Part shown: positions 5,481 through 47,546 of the stretch, piece after piece
Layout of the letters: each line of letters begins with the position of its first letter
Numbering within the stretch: position 1 is the stretch's first letter
Translations under genes and position numbers: made by a program
The notes under the pieces: generated by a model
What the model saw: only the letters and a program-made list of their open reading frames with translations
Databases searched by the model: none
Told to the model about the DNA's origin: nothing
Origin: a phage
Length of the DNA: 64,000 nt
Assembly: GCA_025829515.1 (NCBI GenBank)
Contig: GCA_025829515.1_4865.1
Reading direction: 5' to 3' (one strand)

Positions 5481-5510
5481 TTTTCAGATAGATGTTATTT
5501 TACTGAACCT
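5481..5510 (+). promoter_or_regulatory. conserved intergenic motif copy 1 (TTTCAGATAGATGTTAT-n3-ACTGAACCT)
   Basis: near-identical copies at 13885-13914 and 17652-17682, each just upstream of a gene. Confidence 0.5.
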
Positions 5511-13885: not shown

Positions 13886-13914
13886 TTTCAGATAGATGTT
13901 ATCTCAGTGAACCT
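13885..13914 (+). promoter_or_regulatory. conserved intergenic motif copy 2 (TTTCAGATAGATGTTAT-n3-AGTGAACCT)
   Basis: 17/17 identity to copy 1 in the core; lies between a terminator and the next gene. Confidence 0.5.
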
Positions 13915-17651: not shown

Positions 17652-17682
17652 TTTTCAGATATATATTACTTAGGTGAGAGTT
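17652..17682 (+). promoter_or_regulatory. conserved intergenic motif copy 3 (TTTTCAGATATATATTAC-n3-GGTGAGAG, diverged)
   Basis: same architecture as copies 1 and 2; downstream of a terminator, 48 nt upstream of the next start. Confidence 0.4.
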
Positions 17683-36896: not shown

Positions 36897-39074
36897 ATGT
36901 CCTACACTCCTGATTTAGTGGCGACCGTGATTCGGTCGCTCAACCGTAAAAACGCGGTCGCCAAAGCAGTAGACCCCGCTAACGTACGCCTGGTGTCCGT
37001 GGCGCATCGTGACGAAAAAACCCTAGACGTCACACTGACAGGGGGTCCGGGGTATTCAAGTTACGGTCAAATTACGGCCCAAGTCACGAAGCAAAATATT
37101 GCTGATTATTTCGCCAAGGTTAAGTTGGATGCCATTCCCACTTGTGCGTCCATCCACGAACTGTTGCCGCATTTAGACACTCTACTAGGGATTACCTTTT
37201 TAACTGACGACTTTGAAGACCTGCCTATCACTTGGACAAACAATGCTGCGTGTATCACGTTCCAGGCGAAACAGACAAGTCTTATCTGGTACGGCAGCCA
37301 AACGCTAGATGTGATAAACGGTGACGTGGATATCAACACCGTCTACACTGTTACCAACATCATTCTCACGCTAAAGGCTGCGAATAAACAGCAGTGGATT
37401 AACTTCTACTCTAATGCAACCAAACGGATCGTGGATCTTGATAAAGTCGATGTCAGCTCCCCGATGTCCCCGGAGGATATAGGCCAAACCTCTGCGTATA
37501 ACAGCGTCGTAGCTTTGACCGCTAGACCGGGGAGCGGGATGTTTGGAACGAAGTATGTGTTCTTTTCACGTAACAAACTCGAGACATATGCAGGCAAAAC
37601 CACATACGTCCCGGATGATTTCACCGGTAGCCTGCACGATGCTCTGGCCATCGAGACACTCGGCATTCGGAGTGTTTTTGATGTAAACGAAATTGCTCCT
37701 GTAGAGAACCTGGCAGGCGAGTGGCCGAGACAAGTGCAATTGGCACCCGTAGAGGGTTCGTACAAAGTCATGGGCAGTGCCACGTTGAATGTGGCACGCT
37801 ATCAAGATAACGAGCAAACCCTTAACCTGAACTACACAACTACGTCGCAACTTTCGGACAGCTACTGGGCCACAACGTTGACCAACCATGCGGCGTGCGG
37901 GCGTTTGTTTGTTAACGTGACCGTAGATGCGGGGGCTTTCGTTTATCGCGACAGCAACCTGAAACCGACGTTCGTTATCGACGAATTGCCGCAAATTGGC
38001 GAGGTGGTTTGGAACTTCGTTAACCGGGGAACCATTCTTGGTCGTGGTGGTTCGGGTATGGTCTACTCTATGCCTGCGAACACATCAGCGGACGGAGCTG
38101 ACGCAATCCACATTACCGATGCCTTCCGCGGCAAAGTCACCATCGAAAACTACGGCACCATCGCCGGAGGTGGGGGCGGGGGCGACTACTATGCGTTTAG
38201 CACCACCAAGATCGGTGGAGCTGGTGGTGCGCCACTCGGGACAGGCGCGGTGGTGCCCAGCGGCACCAATAACCGTAACGGCTTAGCTGGGTCCCGTGAC
38301 AAAGGCGGTGCTACTCAGTTAGTCGTCGCACAATTTACCGGCTACCAGAGTCGCTACTATGGCGGTCCGGGTGGGGATTGGGGCCAGCCGGGACGATATA
38401 CAGCGTTCGAGCAATGGAACACCCCGGCTACCGGCTCGCCGATCTATGTCTACGGTCGTGAAGACGGGATGTCATGGACTCGCCCTGGGATGGCAGGCGA
38501 AGCCGTCGGTGGGAATAAAAGTATCGTCAACTGGGTATCCGTCGGAACGGTGAAACCGAATGTCACCAACGAGTACCAAGAGTTCCTCGACTACCTCGCA
38601 GATTTAGATGCCAACCGATTGGCCAGTGCGGATGGGATAGATAAAGTCACCGACCCAACCAAGCCTGTAGTTGTGGAGTTCTTAGGTACGATTATTTCAG
38701 GTACGCTGTTCCAAAAGCAAAACATACCCGGCGGTTTGGTGGGAACACCATACGGCGATGCTGTAGCCAACTTACCAGCCACCACATTGTTTGGTATCAT
38801 GGCACACTGTGTATCGGAGTTTGATATTGTGCACGACACTTGGCGTTACAACCGCGCGGTGATGTTCACGCTAAAACCCGCACCTACCGGGGCGATTAGC
38901 CTCGCTGTGGAACGCAACCGGGTGAAATCGGCTACCAGTAGTGCACCGGTGGAGAAGTTCTACGTCGATCGCTTCGTGTATTACGATGCGTATCTCGGTA
39001 AAATGATGGAATGTAATCCGTATACCAAATCTGCCCCTAAACCGTGGGTGCGGCCAACGATACCGTTATCGTAA
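36897..39074 (+). CDS. paralog-family protein with Gly-rich region (725 aa); candidate receptor-binding protein
   Basis: Gly-rich tract IAGGGGGGDYYAFSTTKIGGAGGAPLGTG; C-terminal domain shared with 35563-36882; stop is followed in frame by FNEELDGFKA-stop. Confidence 0.65.
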   Translation: MSYTPDLVATVIRSLNRKNAVAKAVDPANVRLVSVAHRDEKTLDVTLTGGPGYSSYGQITAQVTKQNIADYFAKVKLDAIPTCASIHELLPHLDTLLGITFLTDDFEDLPITWTNNAACITFQAKQTSLIWYGSQTLDVINGDVDINTVYTVTNIILTLKAANKQQWINFYSNATKRIVDLDKVDVSSPMSPEDIGQTSAYNSVVALTARPGSGMFGTKYVFFSRNKLETYAGKTTYVPDDFTGSLHDALAIETLGIRSVFDVNEIAPVENLAGEWPRQVQLAPVEGSYKVMGSATLNVARYQDNEQTLNLNYTTTSQLSDSYWATTLTNHAACGRLFVNVTVDAGAFVYRDSNLKPTFVIDELPQIGEVVWNFVNRGTILGRGGSGMVYSMPANTSADGADAIHITDAFRGKVTIENYGTIAGGGGGGDYYAFSTTKIGGAGGAPLGTGAVVPSGTNNRNGLAGSRDKGGATQLVVAQFTGYQSRYYGGPGGDWGQPGRYTAFEQWNTPATGSPIYVYGREDGMSWTRPGMAGEAVGGNKSIVNWVSVGTVKPNVTNEYQEFLDYLADLDANRLASADGIDKVTDPTKPVVVEFLGTIISGTLFQKQNIPGGLVGTPYGDAVANLPATTLFGIMAHCVSEFDIVHDTWRYNRAVMFTLKPAPTGAISLAVERNRVKSATSSAPVEKFYVDRFVYYDAYLGKMMECNPYTKSAPKPWVRPTIPLS

Positions 39075-39152: not shown

Positions 39153-39179
39153 ATGACCCTATCAACTCAGGAGGTTATC

Positions 39180-39770
39180 GTGGTCGATCGTTGGAGTAAA
39201 GAGGGCATTATTCGTGCCAAAGTAAACATCGAAGCCGGTTACGTTAATAACCCGAAAGATTTGGGCAAAGCAACGAACCGCGGTGTCACCGAACTCACTG
39301 CGCGCGAATATGGCTATAAAGGGGATATGCGTGACCTGAGCTTAGAAATCGCGTTAGACATTTACAACAAGCTCTGGTGGCAGCGGATGCGTTTAGACCA
39401 GATTATGAAAATGAATGTCCTGCTAGCTGACCGAATGTTTGATTTCGGCATTAACGCAGGACGCGGTAACTGTATCAAGTCCCTGCAACGTATTCTGAAC
39501 GTATTAAACCGTCAGGGTAAACTATACGATGATATCGATGCCGATGGTGGTATCGGGCCACGTACGTTAACAGCGTTAGAAGGCTTCATCAAAGCCCGTG
39601 GGGAAGAGGGCCTGAATCGACTGATGTTCGCTTTAACCTGTCATCAGGTTGCGTACTACACGGAAATCAGTGAAGGGCGTGAGGATAACGAAGAGTTTAC
39701 TTACGGCTGGTATGGCCGCGTCTATCAGGAAATGCCAGACTACGTGGCTAAGTTGGGGATGTGCAAATGA
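39180..39770 (+). CDS. endolysin, glycoside hydrolase family 108-like with PG_binding_3-like C-terminus
   Basis: EAGYVNNPKDLGKATNRGVTELTAREYGYKGDMRDL and DGGIGPRTLTALEGF, NEEFTYGWYGRV match the GH108-type phage lysin pattern; start placed at GTG after AGGAGG (in-frame ATG at 39153 lacks an SD). Confidence 0.8.
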   Translation: MVDRWSKEGIIRAKVNIEAGYVNNPKDLGKATNRGVTELTAREYGYKGDMRDLSLEIALDIYNKLWWQRMRLDQIMKMNVLLADRMFDFGINAGRGNCIKSLQRILNVLNRQGKLYDDIDADGGIGPRTLTALEGFIKARGEEGLNRLMFALTCHQVAYYTEISEGREDNEEFTYGWYGRVYQEMPDYVAKLGMCK

Positions 39771-39868
39771 AACAGAATTGGTTTGCTGCCTTAATGAAAG
39801 CTATCTGGCGCGCCCTTGTTTTTGCCGCAAGGAGAAAACGTAATGACCCACCGTCCAACTCCGCCTAA
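39767..39868 (+). CDS. small hydrophobic ORF (33 aa); candidate lysis-cassette membrane protein
   Basis: ATGA overlap with endolysin stop; WFAALMKAIWRALVFAA then basic tail; below the ORF-track size cutoff. Confidence 0.3.
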   Translation: MKQNWFAALMKAIWRALVFAARRKRNDPPSNSA

Positions 39869-39995
39869 GTTCCCCGAAGTACAAACCGTTCCGGAAACGT
39901 ATTACGATTCTGGGTTCTTCAAACTATTACGCGCGATCTTCTGTCGGAGGGTAAAGCCATGCAATACGACAACGACGACTGGCCGAAAGGCTTAA
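39843..39995 (+). CDS. small ORF (50 aa)
   Basis: ATG preceded by aaggagaaaacg SD. Confidence 0.25.
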   Translation: MTHRPTPPKFPEVQTVPETYYDSGFFKLLRAIFCRRVKPCNTTTTTGRKA

Positions 39996-40051
39996 TGCCC
40001 ATTTTACTGGGATTAATGGTCCTCACGATGCTCGTGCGTTATATGACGTGA
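39959..40051 (+). CDS. small single-TM ORF (30 aa); candidate holin or spanin-like component
   Basis: ggagg SD; PILLGLMVLTMLV transmembrane-like segment. Confidence 0.3.
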   Translation: MQYDNDDWPKGLMPILLGLMVLTMLVRYMT

Positions 40052-40058
40052 GGTCAGT

Positions 40059-40700
40059 ATGGAAGCACTTAAGTATAAGTTGTTAGAGAAGCCGTGGTTT
40101 ATCCTCACGGATGATTTCCATTTCGAGTTTACGTTGCGCAGCCTCTATCGTGAACACGCCGGAATGGATGCGATGGTAGCATTAGCAGGTCTGCATCCGG
40201 ATACCCCGTTATGGGTAACGGTACCGAAAGGATTTGTGACGGACCTGGCAAGCATTCCAGAAGCGTTACGTCCTATCCTGCATCCGGATGGGCCTTGGGC
40301 TGCTGCCGCTTGTGTGCATGATTTGTTTTACCAGAAACGTTCATCGGTAGGCTTTTACCCTGACACTGTCGAAGGTAATCTATCTCGTGCATGTGACAAA
40401 ACATTCGCTGACCTGATGTTCTTACGTATCATGGAGGCATTAGGCGTTGACACCTTTATTCGTAAGTCCTTCTACCATGCCGTTCACGAGTTTGGTTGGC
40501 CGTCCTATGTAGACGATAACTCTAAGGTGGTTTATAGCCGGCCGGTAGAAAAGACGTTGTCCTATAATCGCAACTACCTGTTCTTTAGAACGTCGCGTAC
40601 GTTAGCGATTCCTGAACACGAACGTGTTGACATTACTAATGGGCAACCGGTAAACGTGCAGTATTTGAATATCAAACGTGCGTTCCTGACTACCCCTTAA
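40059..40700 (+). CDS. DUF1353-like protein
   Basis: KGFVTDLASIP resembles the DUF1353 F-x-T-D-G-A-S-I-P signature. Confidence 0.5.
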   Translation: MEALKYKLLEKPWFILTDDFHFEFTLRSLYREHAGMDAMVALAGLHPDTPLWVTVPKGFVTDLASIPEALRPILHPDGPWAAAACVHDLFYQKRSSVGFYPDTVEGNLSRACDKTFADLMFLRIMEALGVDTFIRKSFYHAVHEFGWPSYVDDNSKVVYSRPVEKTLSYNRNYLFFRTSRTLAIPEHERVDITNGQPVNVQYLNIKRAFLTTP

Positions 40701-41225: not shown

Positions 41226-41304
41226 GCCACTTTAATCAAAAGTAATATCATTTATCATTTGATACGTTTAATGCGCTTAGAGAGCGTTACAGAGCGTTTT
41301 AGAG

Positions 41305-41362
41305 GGTAAATAAAGCCCTTACCCACTCCCCTTACGGGAGTGGGTAAGCATTATTTATTTTC
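41305..41362. terminator. bidirectional intrinsic terminator between convergent genes
   Basis: cttacccactcc...ggagtgggtaag hairpin flanked by an A-tract on one side and a T-tract on the other. Confidence 0.7.
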
Positions 41363-41842
41363 TTCTAACGGAACAATCGTAATCGGAGTAGGAACTTCAC
41401 CGATAAACCCGCTGCTGCAGCGAAAGAATGTCATCCCTTTACCTTCGCCGGTATACGGGTTCACATCCGAAAAAGAGTAAGTGGGGCTATCGTTTACGGT
41501 TTTATTAATACGGTAATAACGCTCACCTGTGGTGGTGTTAACATTCCCGTCGATTTTGCCAATTGTATCTTTAAACATCATCGGTGACTCTAGTTTGCCA
41601 CCGTCCCACGTTGCTACCCAGTTTGCACCCACATCCATTACTGTTACTGACCGCGGCATCATCTGTAGATTGTCCAGAACCGGACGGTAGTCTATAAACT
41701 TCTCCTGCGTCCCTGTGCATGTATAAATCACCAAGTCGTGATTCTTTACTGGTGTGGCGCTAAATTGTCCTATGTTGCTTGGCGACTGAACACAACCGGC
41801 CAACAGGTTTATAATCGCGAGTACGATAAATAGACGTTTCAT
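41351..41842 (-). CDS. lipoprotein (signal peptide plus lipobox LLAGC)
   Basis: MKRLFIVLAIINLLAGC; lone minus-strand gene between two bidirectional terminators. Confidence 0.7.
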   Translation of the reverse strand: MKRLFIVLAIINLLAGCVQSPSNIGQFSATPVKNHDLVIYTCTGTQEKFIDYRPVLDNLQMMPRSVTVMDVGANWVATWDGGKLESPMMFKDTIGKIDGNVNTTTGERYYRINKTVNDSPTYSFSDVNPYTGEGKGMTFFRCSSGFIGEVPTPITIVPLEENK

Positions 41843-41966
41843 AGAGTACCTTTCAGTGGTAAAAAAATTTCTCGTTTAACAGCCAACTTTACTGTCATAT
41901 TAAGCCCACTATGTTGTTTTTAGAACGATTTAGTATGCACCACAAACCTACTATAAGGAAACAACC

Positions 41967-42494
41967 ATGGCAGTCATCTCTGCAAAAGACCAACTCGTCG
42001 CGCTGTTTAATGCTGCAAACAGCGGACTGTCTAGTCCGTTAACTTCTGCTGACGTTACATTCGGCGCTGTTGCTGACTATTCACCAGCAGATTCTGGAGA
42101 CACCCGCAACTCCAAACTCACCATCACTGCCACCGCGGAATCCGCTAACTTTACTGGCGAGAAAGAGCTGCATTATACCCGCCTCGATTCATTGAACATC
42201 ATCGGTGCGAAAGCAGTTACCGCTGACCAGGCAGAATGGGATACCGATGAAGAAGTGCTTGCTTTTGTCAACGCAGATCTAATTGCCGCCGGTAAAACGG
42301 AAGATGCGTTTGCATTGTCTGAACTCACCATTTCACGCGAGGACGGCGACAGTGGTGAGAAAATCATCACTGTTATGGTGAAAGAAGGCCACATTAAATA
42401 CCAGCCTGCCAGCCTTGCAGTTTATACTGTAACGCAGCCAATCGTTAAAACTGACCTGAGCACCACCAACGGTGAACTGGACGGATTCGTTTAA
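41967..42494 (+). CDS. short paralog-family member carrying the C-terminal NGELDGF tag
   Basis: DTRNSKLTITA, HYTRLDSLNIIG, ends LSTTNGELDGFV. Confidence 0.65.
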   Translation: MAVISAKDQLVALFNAANSGLSSPLTSADVTFGAVADYSPADSGDTRNSKLTITATAESANFTGEKELHYTRLDSLNIIGAKAVTADQAEWDTDEEVLAFVNADLIAAGKTEDAFALSELTISREDGDSGEKIITVMVKEGHIKYQPASLAVYTVTQPIVKTDLSTTNGELDGFV

Positions 42495-42518: not shown

Positions 42519-42574
42519 AAATAAATAAAAGGTACCTACCTCCCTTCGGGGAGGTAGGGCCTTTATTTTCTTTG
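42519..42574. terminator. bidirectional intrinsic terminator
   Basis: cctacctccc-ttcg-gggaggtagg hairpin with A-run upstream and T-run downstream. Confidence 0.8.
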
Positions 42575-43247: not shown

Positions 43248-43789
43248 TCGTCCTCCTCAATCAGGCCAAGTTCTAACAACAAACCGAAGTCCAGCATCTG
43301 GAAGTCCTGATCGAGGTTACCGGCCCACAACAGAGAAATGTTGTGTTGCTCTTCTTCTTCCAACTGCGGGAGCAGGTGTTCTTCGAAGATTTGACGCTCT
43401 GTGTAATAAGCGTCAACCGGGTTATTGGAGCGTAAGTTACGAATACGCATCCGCGGGAAAGACAAGCCCAAAGCCACTAAACTTTCAGGACTGGCTTCAT
43501 CAATAGAGTGACGTAGCAGTTCGATTTTGTGGCGTGGGTATGCAAGCAGTCGCTTCTCAAAGCCAGGGTTGCGCTTTTCGATTTCCGCGACAGACTCGTG
43601 TCCTTTCTCAACGCAGTAGACCGGGATCATCACGTTCAGCCCGTATTTAATCAACAGGCTTTGGATTTCATCAGTGAAGTCTTCCCCTGCCACAATTGCG
43701 TGCACATTGTACAGCTTGCTTTTGCGCAGGAAGCGATCGACCAAGTGCAGTTTACGCTTCGTAAAATTGTGAATCAGTATTGACTTCAT
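43223..43789 (-). CDS. hypothetical protein
   Basis: start trimmed to ATG at 43789 (GGAG SD); overlaps the upstream radical SAM gene by 38 nt. Confidence 0.5.
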   Translation of the reverse strand: MKSILIHNFTKRKLHLVDRFLRKSKLYNVHAIVAGEDFTDEIQSLLIKYGLNVMIPVYCVEKGHESVAEIEKRNPGFEKRLLAYPRHKIELLRHSIDEASPESLVALGLSFPRMRIRNLRSNNPVDAYYTERQIFEEHLLPQLEEEEQHNISLLWAGNLDQDFQMLDFGLLLELGLIEEDECLLLTKA

Positions 43790-45080
43790 TCTGGGCTCCG
43801 TTTTGTAATTTTTCTGCTTCGGCACGTTGGCGTACACAACGTGAACAATAGCACATGGATTTATCATGCAAATCTGATGCGCGAGTCGTACCAGTTTTCT
43901 GATACCAATATTCCGCCGCCATCAGCTTCGCAGTAGTCCAACCACACTGACGACGCTCGGCGTGATACGCTTTACGGTCTTCCAGTGTACCTTCACCGTT
44001 TTCGTACGATGCTGCTGCGCAGCTACCGCAGCTGTGTTTCATCGGACACCCTAAACAGGTTTCTGGGTAGTTGGTGTACTGCGTTTGAATCTCTTCTAAC
44101 AGCTTACCGCCGTCCAGGCTCACAAACTCACGACCAACCAGTTCCGCTACAGCAGAGCGGGAAGTTACCGTGGACATGAAACGGTTACAACCGTAAATCT
44201 TGCGATCAAAGCCGAGACAGGTCATGTGCGTCAACGTACCGCAGTACGGTTTCAGGCGTTCTGGGTCGAGACGAACAGAGTCGTCATGTAAGAGTTTGTC
44301 ACGCCAATCCGGGTCCCAAGTTGCCATAAAGTTCAGGCCATCCGGGATGATGTGTGTAATCGTGTTACGCGGGTTGGTGTGCAGACCCTTCTCAATCCAG
44401 TAGTCCATCACGTCCATCATCTGGTTCGCGATATCCAACGCCATATGGCGCGGCAGGATATCTTCGTACGTTACGTTACCAGAGATGGTACCACCGCCGG
44501 ACATGTCAATTAACGATTTCATGCTGGCGGCATAGTGCGGCAATGTATCGATCGTAAACGTCGCCTTTACGCCCAGCTCAGCGATGCCAACACTCTTCAG
44601 ATAATTGTAACCGCGTACCGCAGCTTCGTACGACCCTTCACGCGTCGTGGTAAAGATACGATATTTGTCATGGACTTCAGGTAAACCATCGATGGAGACC
44701 CCAATAGACAGTTTGTCTTTCCAGCGCTCGATAATTTCTTTGTTCAGCGGACGGTCCAGAAGCGTACCGTTCGTGGAGATACTGAACATATACGGGCGAT
44801 TGTGTTCTGCGCATAACTTCTCTGCGGTTTCAAAGGCCGCCAAAAGAAGTTTAGGCTGCATGAACGGCTCACCACCGATGATATCGATGATGACTTCAAC
44901 GTTCGGGATATCTTTATCACGCTCGAAACAAGCGTGGATAAAATCAATCACGTCTGCTACTTTGTTGTTACGCGGATATTTACGCTCGTAGCAGTATTCG
45001 CAGTCCAGGTTACATGACAGGTTAGTCACAACCTGATACGTGCGTGGTGTGTACTGGATTTGCTGTTCGCTATTACTCAT
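43752..45080 (-). CDS. radical SAM enzyme with SPASM/twitch-type Cys-rich C-terminal domain
   Basis: CNLDCEYC (CX3CX2C), IIGGEPFM, TNGTLL, C-terminal cysteines CGTLTHMTC...CNRF...CLGCPMKHSCGSCAA; ATG overlaps upstream stop. Confidence 0.8.
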   Translation of the reverse strand: MSNSEQQIQYTPRTYQVVTNLSCNLDCEYCYERKYPRNNKVADVIDFIHACFERDKDIPNVEVIIDIIGGEPFMQPKLLLAAFETAEKLCAEHNRPYMFSISTNGTLLDRPLNKEIIERWKDKLSIGVSIDGLPEVHDKYRIFTTTREGSYEAAVRGYNYLKSVGIAELGVKATFTIDTLPHYAASMKSLIDMSGGGTISGNVTYEDILPRHMALDIANQMMDVMDYWIEKGLHTNPRNTITHIIPDGLNFMATWDPDWRDKLLHDDSVRLDPERLKPYCGTLTHMTCLGFDRKIYGCNRFMSTVTSRSAVAELVGREFVSLDGGKLLEEIQTQYTNYPETCLGCPMKHSCGSCAAASYENGEGTLEDRKAYHAERRQCGWTTAKLMAAEYWYQKTGTTRASDLHDKSMCYCSRCVRQRAEAEKLQNGAQNEVNTDSQFYEA

Positions 45081-45987
45081 TGTTCGCCGCCCGTTTACGC
45101 TTAGCAGAAATTACACGGTTGATGTAGTTATACGCATCAACGCCGATAGAACGCGCCAGGCGATTACAGCCGACTTCCAATATCTCTGGGGCGTTCTGAA
45201 TTTGCTCCTGCGTACCGTCGGCGTTAAGCCACAGCACTTCACTGCACGTGTTGCACTCGGTATCGAACATTTTACTGATCGCAAGCCCACATTCAGAATC
45301 GTTCTGCATGTTAAGGCGTTCGATATTGTCGAGTATTTTCCAATACCCGTACATGAAGTTCATGACGTGGTCTGGCGATAACGGTTTCGGCATCATCGCA
45401 TCAAACAACAACGACACACCACCTGGACGGTAATGATAGATTGCTCGGTGCAGCTCGATGAAATCTTCGTACCAGCGTTTATCACCTAACTGGTCACGCG
45501 TCATCACACCCCAGGTGTAATAGTTGTCCAGCTCGTACAGCACTTCCAGCGCTTCGTGATTACCACCGTTTACAAAGTTCATAAACGGACGTTCCGACTT
45601 CTTGTAGCCGTCAATGGACACAAAGATAAGGTCGAACTGTTTCAGCAACGGCAGATGTGACTTACGCATCTTTAAACCGTTGGTGTACATGTGATGACGG
45701 AGGTTCGGATGAGACTCCTTCAACTCGTTCACGAAGTCTTCAATCTTACGCTGCGCTAACAGCGGCTCACCGCCCGTCCAATGAATCTCACCGATATCCG
45801 GATTCTTCTCTAAAATAGAGAGAATCTCTTCACGTTGAAACTCACGAGAAGTATCTTCTCTATCCATGTAATAAGCCCCTCCACAGAAGCTACAGTCTAA
45901 GTTACACTTAGAAGTTGCGACAACCGACAGAATTGACGGTTTGTCGTACAGTTCAGACGAGATCCTGGATTCTACTTGATCTGTCAT
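45073..45987 (-). CDS. radical SAM enzyme
   Basis: CNLDCSFCGG (CX3CX2C), IHWTGGEPLL; start trimmed to ATG at 45987 (GGAG SD). Confidence 0.75.
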   Translation of the reverse strand: MTDQVESRISSELYDKPSILSVVATSKCNLDCSFCGGAYYMDREDTSREFQREEILSILEKNPDIGEIHWTGGEPLLAQRKIEDFVNELKESHPNLRHHMYTNGLKMRKSHLPLLKQFDLIFVSIDGYKKSERPFMNFVNGGNHEALEVLYELDNYYTWGVMTRDQLGDKRWYEDFIELHRAIYHYRPGGVSLLFDAMMPKPLSPDHVMNFMYGYWKILDNIERLNMQNDSECGLAISKMFDTECNTCSEVLWLNADGTQEQIQNAPEILEVGCNRLARSIGVDAYNYINRVISAKRKRAANNE

Positions 45988-46009
45988 TGCAGGTTGCTCC
46001 AGTATATTT

Positions 46010-46897
46010 TTAAATATAATCAATGGCGAATAAAGGATCTTCGTCTACATTAGCGCCGGGCACCAGTAACATCGGGTCGTGATAGGCAGCTAAAATTTTG
46101 TTCAGGTCGGCGTGTCTTTCGTTCAGGCGTTTCAAATCGGCCAACGTTACCGAACGACCACGAATCTCAGAAACAGCTTCTGCTTCTTCTTTCGTTAAAT
46201 CCACCTTCGTTAAGAGGAAACTTACCAGCTTACTCAAATCCGCTTCCGTCGCCGGATAATCCCCATATCGGGTTTGAACCAGATGTTGCATCCACGGTTT
46301 ACGAATACGTTTGGTGATTTCAAAATCGTCAGTCAACGCATACCAGACAGAACGCTTTTTATCCCACACGAACTTATAGCTATACGCCATCATGTCCGCT
46401 AAACGGGTGATGCCAAGTTCTTTATACCCCTCGATATCGATGTATGGTTCGGTGTCGAAATACGTTTCCGTATCGGCAGGTACCAGTACAAAGTAGTAAG
46501 GGAACGAGCCCAGATAGTCCGGACTCCACCAACGGCGCGCCATCGGTTTTGCTTCAAGTTCGTCAAACGGTGTAAACATCAGTTCTAAATCGACGCTGTT
46601 GTTCAAAATCCCTTCACTGAAGAAATACTTACCGTCGACTAACACGCCACGAGAGTTACCATCGCCGTTAAAGATAACGATGGCCTCTGCAACCATATCA
46701 CGGATCTTAAACGTATTTTCTACGGTGTAGTTCTTCTTGTCGGTCAAGAAGCGACCACGAACCTTTGGCCACTCACCAGGAATCTGTGCAATCAGTCTGA
46801 CTTTGTCAGCAAGGTGCGCACGCACTGAATCTGGGGAAGATAGATGCAGCGGGTGGTTGAATGTGGTTTTATACGCAAGATGCAAATCGTTTTTCAT
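46010..46897 (-). CDS. hypothetical protein (295 aa) between the peptides and the radical SAM genes
   Basis: GGAG SD; no recognisable motif. Confidence 0.55.
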   Translation of the reverse strand: MKNDLHLAYKTTFNHPLHLSSPDSVRAHLADKVRLIAQIPGEWPKVRGRFLTDKKNYTVENTFKIRDMVAEAIVIFNGDGNSRGVLVDGKYFFSEGILNNSVDLELMFTPFDELEAKPMARRWWSPDYLGSFPYYFVLVPADTETYFDTEPYIDIEGYKELGITRLADMMAYSYKFVWDKKRSVWYALTDDFEITKRIRKPWMQHLVQTRYGDYPATEADLSKLVSFLLTKVDLTKEEAEAVSEIRGRSVTLADLKRLNERHADLNKILAAYHDPMLLVPGANVDEDPLFAIDYI

Positions 46898-47126: not shown

Positions 47127-47141
47127 ATAAGCCTCCGTCAG

Positions 47142-47546
47142 TTAGGAGTTAGGACCTGAACAACCACCAGAGCACGCACCTGAGCAGTTTGCGGAGCAGG
47201 ATTTACCACAACCCCCAGAACAGCTGCCTGTGCACGTGCCGCTACAACCACCAGAGCACGAAGAGCTACAGCCCGTGCAGCTGCTGCTACAGCCTGATAC
47301 ACAGTTTGCCGAGCAAGTCGACCCACAACCACCTGTCGCGGACCCTGTGCAGCCGCCAGAGCAACTTGAGCAGCTAAAAGAGCATGTCCCACCACAGTCA
47401 TAGTGCGAACGGCCTTGACCTGCGAACAAGTCGGCGTTATTCGTAGCTTTATTGCGAATGTAGTTTTGCACATTCGTGGTGTTCTTTAAAGCGTTTGCAT
47501 CGATCGTGTTTAATCGGTTATTCAGTTCTTTTAATCCAATTGCCAT
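47142..47546 (-). CDS. Cys-rich peptide 2 (134 aa): leader plus about 80-aa (C-X3)n Cys/Ser/Gly core
   Basis: AAGGGGGA SD; leader MAIGLKELNNRL...NNADLFAGQGRSHYDCGGTCS; core of CSGG/CSSS/CTGS repeats. Confidence 0.65.
   Translation of the reverse strand: MAIGLKELNNRLNTIDANALKNTTNVQNYIRNKATNNADLFAGQGRSHYDCGGTCSFSCSSCSGGCTGSATGGCGSTCSANCVSGCSSSCTGCSSSCSGGCSGTCTGSCSGGCGKSCSANCSGACSGGCSGPNS

What the first reader, a model, noticed from the sequence alone, without database searches (positions are those of the whole stretch)
41351..41842. Isolated convergent lipoprotein gene bracketed by bidirectional terminators
Seen in sequence: the only minus-strand gene in the left 42 kb encodes a protein with a signal peptide and lipobox (LLAGC), sitting between two bidirectional terminators and immediately after the lysis genes. 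Established knowledge: phages encode lipoproteins such as T5 Llp or Cor that block their own receptor. Inference: a receptor-masking/superinfection-exclusion moron.
Basis: partly seen in the sequence, partly recalled or inferred. Interest (0 to 1): 0.5.

Follow-up and report, generated by a model that had tools for sequence, protein, structure and literature searches.

The report
Conserved jumbo-phage outer-membrane lipoprotein gene
The gene is real and encodes an outer-membrane lipoprotein of unknown function that is conserved in SPN3US-like jumbo phages and probably made late in infection, so it is not a recently acquired add-on and shows no relation to the known receptor-blocking lipoproteins.

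Summary
The window is an SPN3US-like nucleus-forming jumbo phage (99.4% identical to Salmonella phage 1252). ORF 41351-41842(-) is SPN3US gp159, annotated hypothetical. The lipoprotein call holds: MKR, a hydrophobic core, LAG|C17, and no Asp at +2. About 35 homologues, including distant ones, keep it. AlphaFold (pLDDT 80.5) gives a short tether, a disulfide-locked (C42-C142) beta-barrel and a variable tail.

Only one bidirectional terminator (41318-41348) touches the gene. The 5' side is a 124-nt divergent promoter region shared with head-protein gene gp160. The second terminator lies beyond gp160.

"Moron" is not supported. The gene is syntenic across at least five genera, has normal GC and has dN/dS 0.15. 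A TATGAC motif upstream is conserved in 9 of 9 relatives and matches the phiKZ late-promoter type.

There is no sequence or fold link to T5 Llp or Cor. An o-spanin role is unlikely, because SPN3US has a separate candidate spanin pair.

Best guess, about 0.3: a late envelope-guarding binder. Function remains untested.

The parts
41351..41842 (-). CDS of the lipoprotein precursor (163 aa), equal to SPN3US_0159 (gp159; RefSeq ACQ60_gp107). The stop codon is 41351-41353.
   Evidence: homologues; dN/dS 0.15
41795..41842 (-). Signal peptide, residues 1-16 (MKRLFIVLAIINLLAG): positive n-region and an 11-residue hydrophobic core
   Evidence: read from the sequence; conserved
41792..41803 (-). Lipobox L14-A15-G16-C17. 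Cys17 would be the lipidated first residue of the mature protein. Residue +2 is Val, not Asp, which predicts Lol sorting to the outer membrane.
   Evidence: weak LPAM_1 match; UniProt names homologues 'Lipoprotein'
41411..41764 (-). Periplasmic all-beta barrel domain (residues 27-144), with invariant C42 and C142 (putative disulfide between the first long strand and the last strand)
41354..41410 (-). Low-confidence, Pro-rich C-terminal tail (residues 145-163), variable in length and sequence. It is not a transmembrane segment.
41849..41854 (-). Shine-Dalgarno GAAAGG, 6 nt upstream of the ATG
   Evidence: sequence
41894..41899 (-). TATGAC late-type promoter and start-site motif for gp159. The predicted start is the G at 41896, giving a 54-nt leader.
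   Evidence: Conserved 38-57 nt upstream of the ATG in 9/9 non-Goslar relatives; same motif type before the tail sheath and other virion genes; phiKZ late promoter TATG (PMC4666361)
41934..41939 (+). TATGCA late-type motif for the divergent head-protein gene gp160
41318..41348 (.). Bidirectional intrinsic-terminator hairpin (13-bp stem, 5-nt loop) shared by the convergent genes gp158 and gp159
41967..42494 (+). gp160 (DUF7941), an abundant head protein. It is the invariant divergent partner of the lipoprotein gene in all SPN3US-like genera examined (Goslar and the metagenomic relatives differ).
   Evidence: virion mass spectrometry (PMC5105663, Table S4)
42535..42558 (.). Second bidirectional terminator. 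It lies after gp160 and does not adjoin gp159.
39153..39770 (+). Context: gp156 endolysin, GH108 + PG_binding_3, in the same family as TtsA and Brucella SagA
39959..40051 (+). Context: 30-aa single-transmembrane ORF. A similar small ORF is annotated between the endolysin and DUF1353 genes in the related genera, and it overlaps the DUF1353 start by 4 nt in Machinavirus.
40059..40700 (+). Context: gp157, a DUF1353 protein (family of the TtaP phospholipase A2)
   Evidence: PMC11525133
40710..41225 (+). Context: gp158, M15-like peptidase (phrog_894 'endolysin'). The main text of PMC5105663 describes it as a virion, non-head component; it is not listed in the Table S4 text held here. The gene is convergent with gp159.

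Best explanation
What it is (confidence about 0.9). This is the gp159 orthologue of an SPN3US-like nucleus-forming jumbo phage. It is a monocistronic gene with its own phage-type promoter and a shared bidirectional terminator.

The product would be exported by Sec and lipidated at Cys17. With no Asp at +2, the Lol system would deliver it to the inner leaflet of the outer membrane. A tether of about 10 residues would then hold a disulfide-locked (C42-C142) beta-barrel of about 118 residues in the periplasm. The protein is not listed in the virion mass-spectrometry table of PMC5105663.

When it is made (inferred, about 0.7). It is made late, together with virion and lysis proteins. The evidence is a TATG-type promoter of the kind used by the non-virion RNA polymerase.

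What it does (my commitment, about 0.3). It is a late envelope-guarding binder built like MliC/PliC/PhiA: a lipid anchor, a short linker and a small barrel closed by one disulfide. I propose that it sits under the outer membrane and neutralises a cell-wall hydrolase acting from the periplasmic side. The target could be the tail-borne hydrolase of superinfecting sister virions, or prematurely released GH108 muramidase or M15 peptidase.

On this reading it protects the infected cell from lysis-from-without or superinfection until programmed lysis. That would be exclusion in the manner of T4 Spackle rather than receptor masking.

Shown here: the gene, the lipobox, conservation, synteny, the fold model and the promoter motif. 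Inferred: lipidation, sorting, the disulfide, the timing and the target.
For: Gene and lipobox:
- ORF and lipobox.
- Only two annotated genes pass the rule-based lipobox scan of the SPN3US genome.
- Purifying selection.

Fold:
- The model is an all-beta barrel with pLDDT 80.5.
- PhiA is an MliC/PliC-fold 8-stranded barrel with a Cys76-Cys154 disulfide. It lacks the SGxxY motif and is genetically linked to the muramidase SagA (PMC8334348).
- gp156, 1.6 kb away, belongs to the same TtsA/SagA family (6v3z E 2e-41; 7dnp E 9e-9).

Timing and location:
- Late-type TATGAC motif is conserved in 9/9 relatives, and similar motifs precede virion genes.
- The putative early motif AGATAGATRTTAT is absent upstream of gp159.
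- gp159 is not in the virion mass-spectrometry table.
- In the four SPN3US-like genera examined (Seoul-, Erskine-, Wellington- and Machinavirus) the gene lies within 2 kb of the endolysin / small transmembrane ORF / DUF1353 module. In distant relatives it lies near M15 and DUF1353 genes.
Against: - There is no sequence-level link to MliC/PliC. Pfam gives no hit and hhalign gives probability 1.6%. The SGxxY motif is absent.
- Foldseek against the PDB finds nothing significant; the best E-value is 0.028 with low TM-scores.
- Purified PhiA did not bind or inhibit SagA in vitro (PMC8334348).
- Co-occurrence is loose. Goslar keeps the lipoprotein, but its GH108 gene is 80 kb away and it has no gp157-like DUF1353.
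- Derbicusvirus and Vibrio pVa-21 have DUF1353 (pVa-21 also GH108) but no lipoprotein within 5 kb.
- About 650 phage records carry GH108 endolysins, and nearly all lack this protein.
- An inhibitor of the phage's own lysin would work against lysis.
- The known exclusion genes that I recall (T4 sp and imm, T5 llp) are expressed early.
Confidence: 0.3

Rival explanations
1. Llp/Cor-like receptor blocker. The lipoprotein binds the periplasmic face of an outer-membrane protein that the phage needs for irreversible adsorption or DNA entry. This would block superinfection, or protect progeny from being inactivated on cell debris.
For: From my own knowledge, not checked here: apart from spanins, receptor blocking by T5 Llp and by Cor is the main characterised role of phage outer-membrane lipoproteins. 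The protein is predicted to sort to the outer membrane and is not in the virion table. In Goslar the homologue lies directly after the tail-fibre and Caudo_TAP assembly genes. As I recall, debris protection has been proposed for Llp, and late expression would fit that role. Among its neighbours the gene has the highest dN at longer evolutionary distances.
Against: There is no homology to Llp or Cor phages, only a PHROG of unknown function, and no Llp among the top fold matches. The mature protein is about 2.4 times the roughly 60 aa I recall for Llp. The promoter is of the late type. The protein is 45-62% identical across phages of four host genera. As I recall, Llp-type blockers change together with the receptor-binding protein; a reference title cited in PMC8273493 says the BF23 receptor-binding/lipoprotein region lacks homology to that of T5. 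The SPN3US receptor is reported to be the flagellum (PMC11428620). In SPN3US-like genomes the neighbours are head and lysis genes, not a receptor-binding protein.
Confidence: 0.2
2. Lipid-handling or lysis accessory. A lipocalin-like or YceI-like barrel at the outer membrane binds phospholipid or lysophospholipid. It would work with the neighbouring DUF1353 (TtaP-type phospholipase A2) and the wall hydrolases, either to destabilise the outer membrane at lysis or to buffer it until then.
Against: Fold scores are weak and generic. Goslar has the lipoprotein without a gp157-like DUF1353. Derbicusvirus and pVa-21 have DUF1353 without the lipoprotein. gp157 has no signal peptide or other obvious route to the periplasm.
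Confidence: 0.15
3. Outer-membrane spanin subunit (o-spanin), or a unimolecular spanin, of the lysis cassette.
For: It is an outer-membrane lipoprotein near an endolysin, with predicted late expression. The phiKZ o-spanin is also long, at 120 codons (PMC12894885).
Against: There is no i-spanin gene upstream on the same strand. The gene is monocistronic and convergent with gp158, whereas o-spanin genes are invariably the next gene after the i-spanin gene (PMC12894885). The periplasmic part is a well-folded barrel rather than a short Pro-rich chain. There is no C-terminal transmembrane segment, which rules out a unimolecular spanin. The C-terminal tails are not conserved. SPN3US has a separate adjacent pair with the right architecture at 180017-180487 (type II transmembrane protein) and 180497-180976 (lipobox LLLTGC).
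Confidence: 0.05

Closest known systems
MliC / PliC / Brucella PhiA (periplasmic or outer-membrane-anchored lysozyme and muramidase inhibitors, Pfam MliC)
T5 Llp (and the BF23 lipoprotein): receptor-blocking outer-membrane lipoproteins of virulent phages
   Same: A small outer-membrane lipoprotein of a lytic phage, not part of the virion, encoded as a separate transcription unit on the opposite strand to its neighbours. A periplasmic disulfide is likely.
   Different: No sequence or fold similarity. The mature protein is about 146 aa, against roughly 60 aa for Llp as I recall. In SPN3US-like phages it is not next to a receptor-binding-protein gene. The promoter is predicted to be late rather than early. 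The protein is conserved across phages of different host genera.
Cor (phi80, N15, T1, HK022): FhuA-inactivating lipoprotein morons
   Same: A phage outer-membrane lipoprotein that would act in the envelope.
   Different: No homology. It is not a moron: it is clade-wide, syntenic and of native composition. It is encoded by virulent nucleus-forming phages, whose transcription (in phiKZ) does not depend on host RNA polymerase (PMC4666361).
Rz1-type o-spanins, including phiKZ gp141.1
   Same: An outer-membrane lipoprotein with predicted late expression, near a cell-wall hydrolase gene.
   Different: No partner i-spanin gene and a globular barrel. A separate candidate spanin pair exists elsewhere in the genome.
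T4 Spackle (periplasmic inhibitor of the tail lysozyme gp5)
   Same: This is the functional analogy of the best guess: a periplasmic phage protein that neutralises a virion-borne wall hydrolase and so excludes superinfection and lysis-from-without.
   Different: From my own knowledge, Spackle is a soluble helical protein expressed early. There is no structural or sequence relation to gp159, and the analogy is purely inferential.

Membership tests
Bacterial lipoprotein (signal peptidase II substrate) | Positive n-region, hydrophobic h-region, and lipobox [LVI][ASTVI][GAS]C with Cys at +1 | tested here: met
   MKR / LFIVLAIINLL / LAG|C17. The lipobox is conserved in nearly all aligned homologues (C17 in at least 90% of the 30 rows) and in the distant homologues. 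Only two annotated genes in the SPN3US genome pass the same rule-based scan.
Bacterial lipoprotein (signal peptidase II substrate) | Actual diacylglyceryl modification and globomycin-sensitive processing | not testable with these tools
   Needs palmitate labelling or globomycin treatment.
Outer-membrane (Lol-sorted) lipoprotein | No Asp at position +2 (enterobacterial +2 rule) | tested here: met
   Residue +2 is Val here, and Ala, Thr, Gln, Ser or Pro in homologues, never Asp.
T5 Llp / Cor receptor-blocking lipoproteins | Sequence homology to Llp or Cor | tested here: not met
   tblastn over 50,697 phage records hits only SPN3US-like, Erwinia jumbo and Goslar phages. PHROGs gives only phrog_9559, of unknown function. 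The PDB sequence search gives nothing below E = 0.1.
T5 Llp / Cor receptor-blocking lipoproteins | Fold similarity to solved Llp | tested here: not met
T5 Llp / Cor receptor-blocking lipoproteins | Gene next to the receptor-binding-protein or tail-fibre gene | tested here: inconclusive
   Not so in Seoul-, Erskine-, Machina- and Wellingtonvirus, where the neighbours are head-protein and lysis genes. It is so in Goslar.
T5 Llp / Cor receptor-blocking lipoproteins | Blocks adsorption or DNA entry through a specific outer-membrane receptor | not testable with these tools
   Needs expression with adsorption and plating-efficiency assays. The reported SPN3US receptor is the flagellum.
Moron | Sporadic presence among close relatives, atypical composition, and an own host-type promoter plus terminator | tested here: not met
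   The gene is present and syntenic in all Seoulvirus records and in four further genera. GC is 0.44-0.47, like the flanks. Sigma-70-like sites are no more frequent than in shuffled sequence. The conserved upstream element is the phage late-type TATGAC. The gene does have its own terminator.
Two-component spanin, o-subunit | Gene embedded in, overlapping or immediately downstream of an i-spanin gene on the same strand | tested here: not met
   The gene is monocistronic, and the upstream region is a divergent promoter. The criterion is taken from PMC12894885.
Two-component spanin, o-subunit | Short, Pro-rich, largely unstructured periplasmic domain | tested here: not met
   The periplasmic part is a confident beta-barrel with core pLDDT 85-94.
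Unimolecular spanin (T1 gp11 type) | N-terminal lipobox plus a C-terminal transmembrane domain | tested here: not met
   The C-terminus is ...PTPITIVPLEENK. It is polar, variable and of low confidence.
MliC/PliC lysozyme inhibitors (PF09864) | Profile match to the family | tested here: not met
   No Pfam hit for any of the 30 members at E <= 1. hhalign against an MliC alignment gives probability 1.6%.
MliC/PliC lysozyme inhibitors (PF09864) | Eight-stranded antiparallel barrel with a stabilising disulfide, periplasmic or lipid-anchored | tested here: inconclusive
MliC/PliC lysozyme inhibitors (PF09864) | SGxxY active-site-binding loop | tested here: not met
   I found no SGxxY among the conserved columns of the alignment. 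PhiA also lacks it.
MliC/PliC lysozyme inhibitors (PF09864) | Inhibits a lysozyme or muramidase | not testable with these tools
   Needs enzyme assays with gp156 or gp158.

The most novel reading that the evidence does not exclude
Enterobacterial nucleus-forming jumbo phages carry a late envelope-attack module made of a SagA/TtsA-type muramidase, a tiny transmembrane protein, a TtaP-type phospholipase A2 and, in some lineages, an M15 peptidase. gp159 would be its outer-membrane-anchored, PhiA-like gatekeeper. It would be a previously undescribed family of hydrolase- or lipid-binding barrel that either times outer-membrane breakdown or gives Spackle-like protection from superinfecting virions.
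Probability: 0.2. Interest if true: 0.6.

Novelty: new variant of a known kind. Interest (0 to 1): 0.33.

Why it matters
Phage outer-membrane lipoproteins with known roles fall into very few classes, mainly spanins and the Llp/Cor receptor blockers. This family fits none of them by sequence, fold or gene context. Yet it is kept across at least five genera of nucleus-forming jumbo phages that are being developed against Salmonella and Erwinia.

If it guards the envelope or tunes lysis, it would bear on superinfection, on lysis-from-without and on lysis timing in chimalliviruses. It would also give a phage counterpart to the debated PhiA-SagA pair.

If it is simply an Llp-like blocker, it would point to a conserved secondary receptor.

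As it stands, this is a well-defined protein of unknown function, not a surprise.

Tried and rejected
Searches that found nothing for gp159:
- Pfam, NCBIfam and PADLOC.
- PHROGs gives only a family of unknown function.
- PDB sequence search with the family profile: nothing below E = 0.1.
- hhalign against an MliC alignment built from PDB sequences: no signal.
- An MliC profile did not retrieve PhiA either, so I could not obtain the PhiA sequence for a direct comparison.
- Foldseek against the PDB: no significant match.
- Foldseek against BFVD returns only family members and a few weak matches to small jumbo-phage proteins of unknown function.

Resources that were unavailable:
- The afdb50 library was not installed.
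- The Goslar RNA-seq table and the SPN3US infection-proteome paper are not held.
- The spanin census supplements do not list SPN3US.

Ideas tested and rejected:
- Strict co-occurrence with DUF1353 or GH108. Goslar, Derbicusvirus and pVa-21 break it.
- o-spanin. There is no i-spanin partner, the protein is globular, and a separate candidate pair lies at SPN3US 180.0-181.0 kb.
- A recently acquired gene. GC content and synteny argue against it.
- The 'gp38 adhesin' annotation of gp155 in one record, as a hint of a receptor-binding neighbour. Mass spectrometry places gp155 in the head.
- The DUF2846 label on one homologue. My Pfam scan did not reproduce it.

I did not attempt a fused-chain complex prediction. 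The tool returns no interface metrics and accepts only window or database sequences.

Full report
**Identity of the window and the gene**

The 5-kb stretch around the finding is 99.4% identical to Salmonella phage 1252 and 96.6% identical to SPN3US. SPN3US belongs to Seoulvirus and is related to phiKZ, the nucleus-forming jumbo phage.

ORF 41351-41842(-) is SPN3US_0159 (gp159; RefSeq ACQ60_gp107). Every record annotates it as a hypothetical protein.

The ORF is 163 aa, starts at ATG and has a GAAAGG Shine-Dalgarno 6 nt upstream. Against SPN3US it is 94.5% identical at the protein level, with dN/dS 0.15. It is therefore a real gene under purifying selection.

**Check of the observation**

The N-terminus, MKRLFIVLAIINLLAG|C17, is a textbook lipoprotein signal. 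Residue +2 is Val, which predicts outer-membrane sorting.

The lipobox is kept in nearly all of the roughly 35 homologues found, including the most distant ones. A rule-based scan of the whole SPN3US genome leaves only two annotated genes with such a signal.

In SPN3US every annotated CDS from 80.7 to 137.5 kb is on the + strand. So this is indeed the first and only minus-strand gene in the left 42 kb of the window.

A 13-bp hairpin at 41318-41348 lies 3 nt beyond the stop codon. It scores as a terminator on both strands and folds far better than shuffled sequence, with z = -5.1.

The claim of two bracketing terminators is wrong in detail:
- The 5' flank (41843-41966) has no hairpin. It is a divergent promoter region shared with gp160 (41967-42494).
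- The second bidirectional terminator (42535-42558) lies after gp160.

**Surroundings**

Upstream on the + strand lie four genes:
- gp156, an endolysin with GH108 and PG_binding_3 domains.
- A 30-aa single-transmembrane ORF.
- gp157, a DUF1353 protein.
- gp158, M15-like, matching phrog_894 'endolysin'.

gp156 belongs to the TtsA/SagA muramidase family (6v3z E 2e-41; Brucella SagA 7dnp E 9e-9).

DUF1353 is the family of TtaP, a phospholipase A2 in the typhoid-toxin islet, which also encodes TtsA (PMC11525133).

The virion mass-spectrometry table of Thomas et al. 2016 (PMC5105663, Table S4) lists gp155 and gp160, with counts retained in tailless particles. It does not list gp159. The main text of that paper treats gp158 as a virion, non-head protein, although gp158 is not in the Table S4 text held here.

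**Distribution and synteny**

The family is small. An exhaustive HMM search of 1.8 billion representative proteins gives only 14 clusters. tblastn finds it in 66 phage records: Seoulvirus, Erskinevirus, Machinavirus, Wellingtonvirus and, at 32% identity, Goslar.

In all SPN3US-like genera the gene is divergently paired with one to three gp160-like DUF7941 genes. The endolysin / small transmembrane ORF / DUF1353 module lies within 2 kb, but on either side and in either orientation.

Other contexts differ:
- In Goslar the gene follows the tail-fibre and Caudo_TAP genes.
- In one metagenomic relative it is the last gene of the head-paralogue operon, convergent with M15 and DUF1353 genes.
- In another it precedes three unknown genes of about 590 aa and a convergent gp158-like gene.
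- Derbicusvirus (CR5, Phobos) and Vibrio pVa-21 have DUF1353 but no lipoprotein within 5 kb.
- Goslar has a GH108 gene 80 kb away and no gp157-like DUF1353.

GH108 endolysins occur in about 650 phage records. There is therefore no strict co-occurrence with any single neighbour.

GC content equals that of the flanks. Together these results reject the 'moron' label.

**Expression**

Across otherwise unalignable upstream regions, a TATGAC element lies 38-57 nt before the start codon in 9 of 9 non-Goslar relatives. Goslar has TATGGA.

The divergent gp160 gene has TATG(C/A)ACC. Similar TATGA(C/A)C elements precede the tail sheath and other virion genes of SPN3US.

In phiKZ, late promoters of the non-virion RNA polymerase are defined by TATG, with the G as the start site (PMC4666361).

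A different, AT-rich motif, AGATAGAT(A/G)TTAT, occurs about 20 times in SPN3US. All copies are on the + strand, and the copies I checked lie just upstream of operons that include replication and transcription genes. It fits the published description of early promoters recognised by the virion RNA polymerase (PMC7598289). It is absent upstream of gp159.

I therefore infer late expression. I have not shown it.

**Structure**

With a 30-sequence alignment, AlphaFold gives mean pLDDT 80.5, with the core at 85-94. The model has four parts:
- A signal helix.
- A flexible tether (residues 18-26).
- An all-beta barrel (residues 27-144).
- A disordered, Pro-rich tail that varies in length.

C42 and C142 are invariant. 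They lie in the first long strand and the last strand, which suggests a periplasmic disulfide.

Foldseek against the PDB finds nothing significant.

PhiA is an MliC/PliC-fold barrel with a Cys76-Cys154 disulfide. It lacks SGxxY and was genetically proposed to inhibit SagA, but it showed no binding in vitro (PMC8334348).

No sequence-level link to MliC/PliC exists.

**Interpretation**

The descriptive model is well supported: a late-made, outer-membrane-anchored, disulfide-locked periplasmic barrel that is not part of the virion.

For the mechanism I commit, at about 0.3, to an MliC/PhiA-like guarding role. The protein would bind a cell-wall hydrolase at the inner face of the outer membrane. 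This would protect the infected cell from sister virions or from premature wall damage, giving exclusion in the manner of T4 Spackle. The grounds are the shared architecture, the PhiA and PliC matches, and the SagA-family muramidase nearby. All of this evidence is weak.

Rivals:
- Llp-like receptor blocking, 0.2.
- A lipid-binding or lysis accessory working with the DUF1353 protein, 0.15.
- o-spanin, 0.05.
- The remainder is 'something else'.

The o-spanin reading is weakened by four points:
- There is no i-spanin gene upstream.
- The protein is globular.
- The tails are not conserved.
- SPN3US has an adjacent pair at 180017-180976, a type II transmembrane protein followed by a lipoprotein, with the expected spanin architecture. 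PHROGs does not name either protein.

**Novelty and score**

No paper held here assigns a function to gp159. The family is a distinct fold variant within the known kind 'phage outer-membrane lipoprotein'.

It is a reasonable target for a simple expression or knockout experiment, but nothing in the evidence is very surprising. Interest is 0.33.

Noticed in passing
window 47142-47546 (-), with 46010-46897, 45073-46023 and 43752-45080 (-): A 134-aa ORF has a leader-like N-terminus and a C-terminal run of Cys/Gly/Ser/Thr repeats (CSGGCTGS...CSGACSGGCSG). It lies just upstream, on the same strand, of two radical-SAM genes, which looks like a RiPP precursor with its maturases in a jumbo phage. RefSeq SPN3US instead annotates the overlapping frame (47138-47473), which translates to an odd Ala/Val-rich protein.
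   Followed up: partly
window 5483-5498, 13887-13902, 17654-17669 (+): The motif TTCAGATAGATGTTAT (core AGATAGATRTTAT) gives 4 matches in the window, against 0.5 expected by chance. It occurs about 20 times in SPN3US, always on the + strand; the copies I checked lie just upstream of operons that include RNA-polymerase and other replication or transcription genes. It is probably the early promoter recognised by the virion RNA polymerase.
   Followed up: partly
window 41894-41899 (-), 41934-41939 (+), 62438 (+), about 62431 (-), 4254 (+); SPN3US tail-sheath upstream region: TATG(A/C)(A/C)C elements sit 20-60 nt upstream of virion genes and of gp159. This matches the phiKZ late-promoter TATG rule. 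Four of the 13 TATGAC copies in the window fall in the small intergenic fraction.
   Followed up: partly
window 39153-40700 (+): gp156 (GH108 + PG_binding_3, TtsA/SagA family) and gp157 (DUF1353, TtaP phospholipase A2 family) form the same gene pair as ttsA-ttaP in the typhoid-toxin islet. Here a 30-aa transmembrane ORF (39959-40051) lies between them; a similar small ORF is annotated there in the related genera, and it overlaps the DUF1353 start in Machinavirus. This suggests that the islet pair derives from a phage lysis module.
   Followed up: partly
SPN3US NC_027402 180017-180976 and 175058-176688 (outside the window): A type II transmembrane protein (156 aa) is followed 10 nt later by a lipoprotein (LLLTGC, 159 aa), a candidate i-/o-spanin pair. 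About 4 kb upstream lie a transglycosylase with a signal-peptide-like N-terminus and an 86-aa ORF with two hydrophobic, transmembrane-like stretches, possibly a second lysis cluster. Both spanin candidates fall in PHROGs of unknown function.
   Followed up: partly
window 36897-39074 (+): gp155 has a Gly-rich central region, and one SPFM record lists a 'tail fiber adhesin Gp38' feature in this stretch. Published mass spectrometry, however, finds gp155 in tailless heads.
   Followed up: no
GenBank records LR535901, LR535903-LR535908, LR535912, LR535913 and LR535917 (SPFM1, 5-10, 14, 15, 20): These genomes align to the window only in many short pieces (about 49% coverage where listed), and their gp159 homologues appear split into 7-8 pieces. 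This suggests sequencing or assembly errors rather than biology.
   Followed up: no
protein clusters P0012 and P0013: Lipoprotein homologues at 47-53% identity come from contigs of about 226 kb. P0012 is labelled as Salmonella enterica serovar Agona, and the clusters hold 308 and 119 member sequences. An uncharacterised jumbo phage seems to be common in Salmonella sequencing data.
   Followed up: no
window 41226-41317: The spacer between the gp158 stop codon and the terminator contains short direct repeats (AGAGCGTT ... AGAGCGTT). Their significance is unknown.
   Followed up: no
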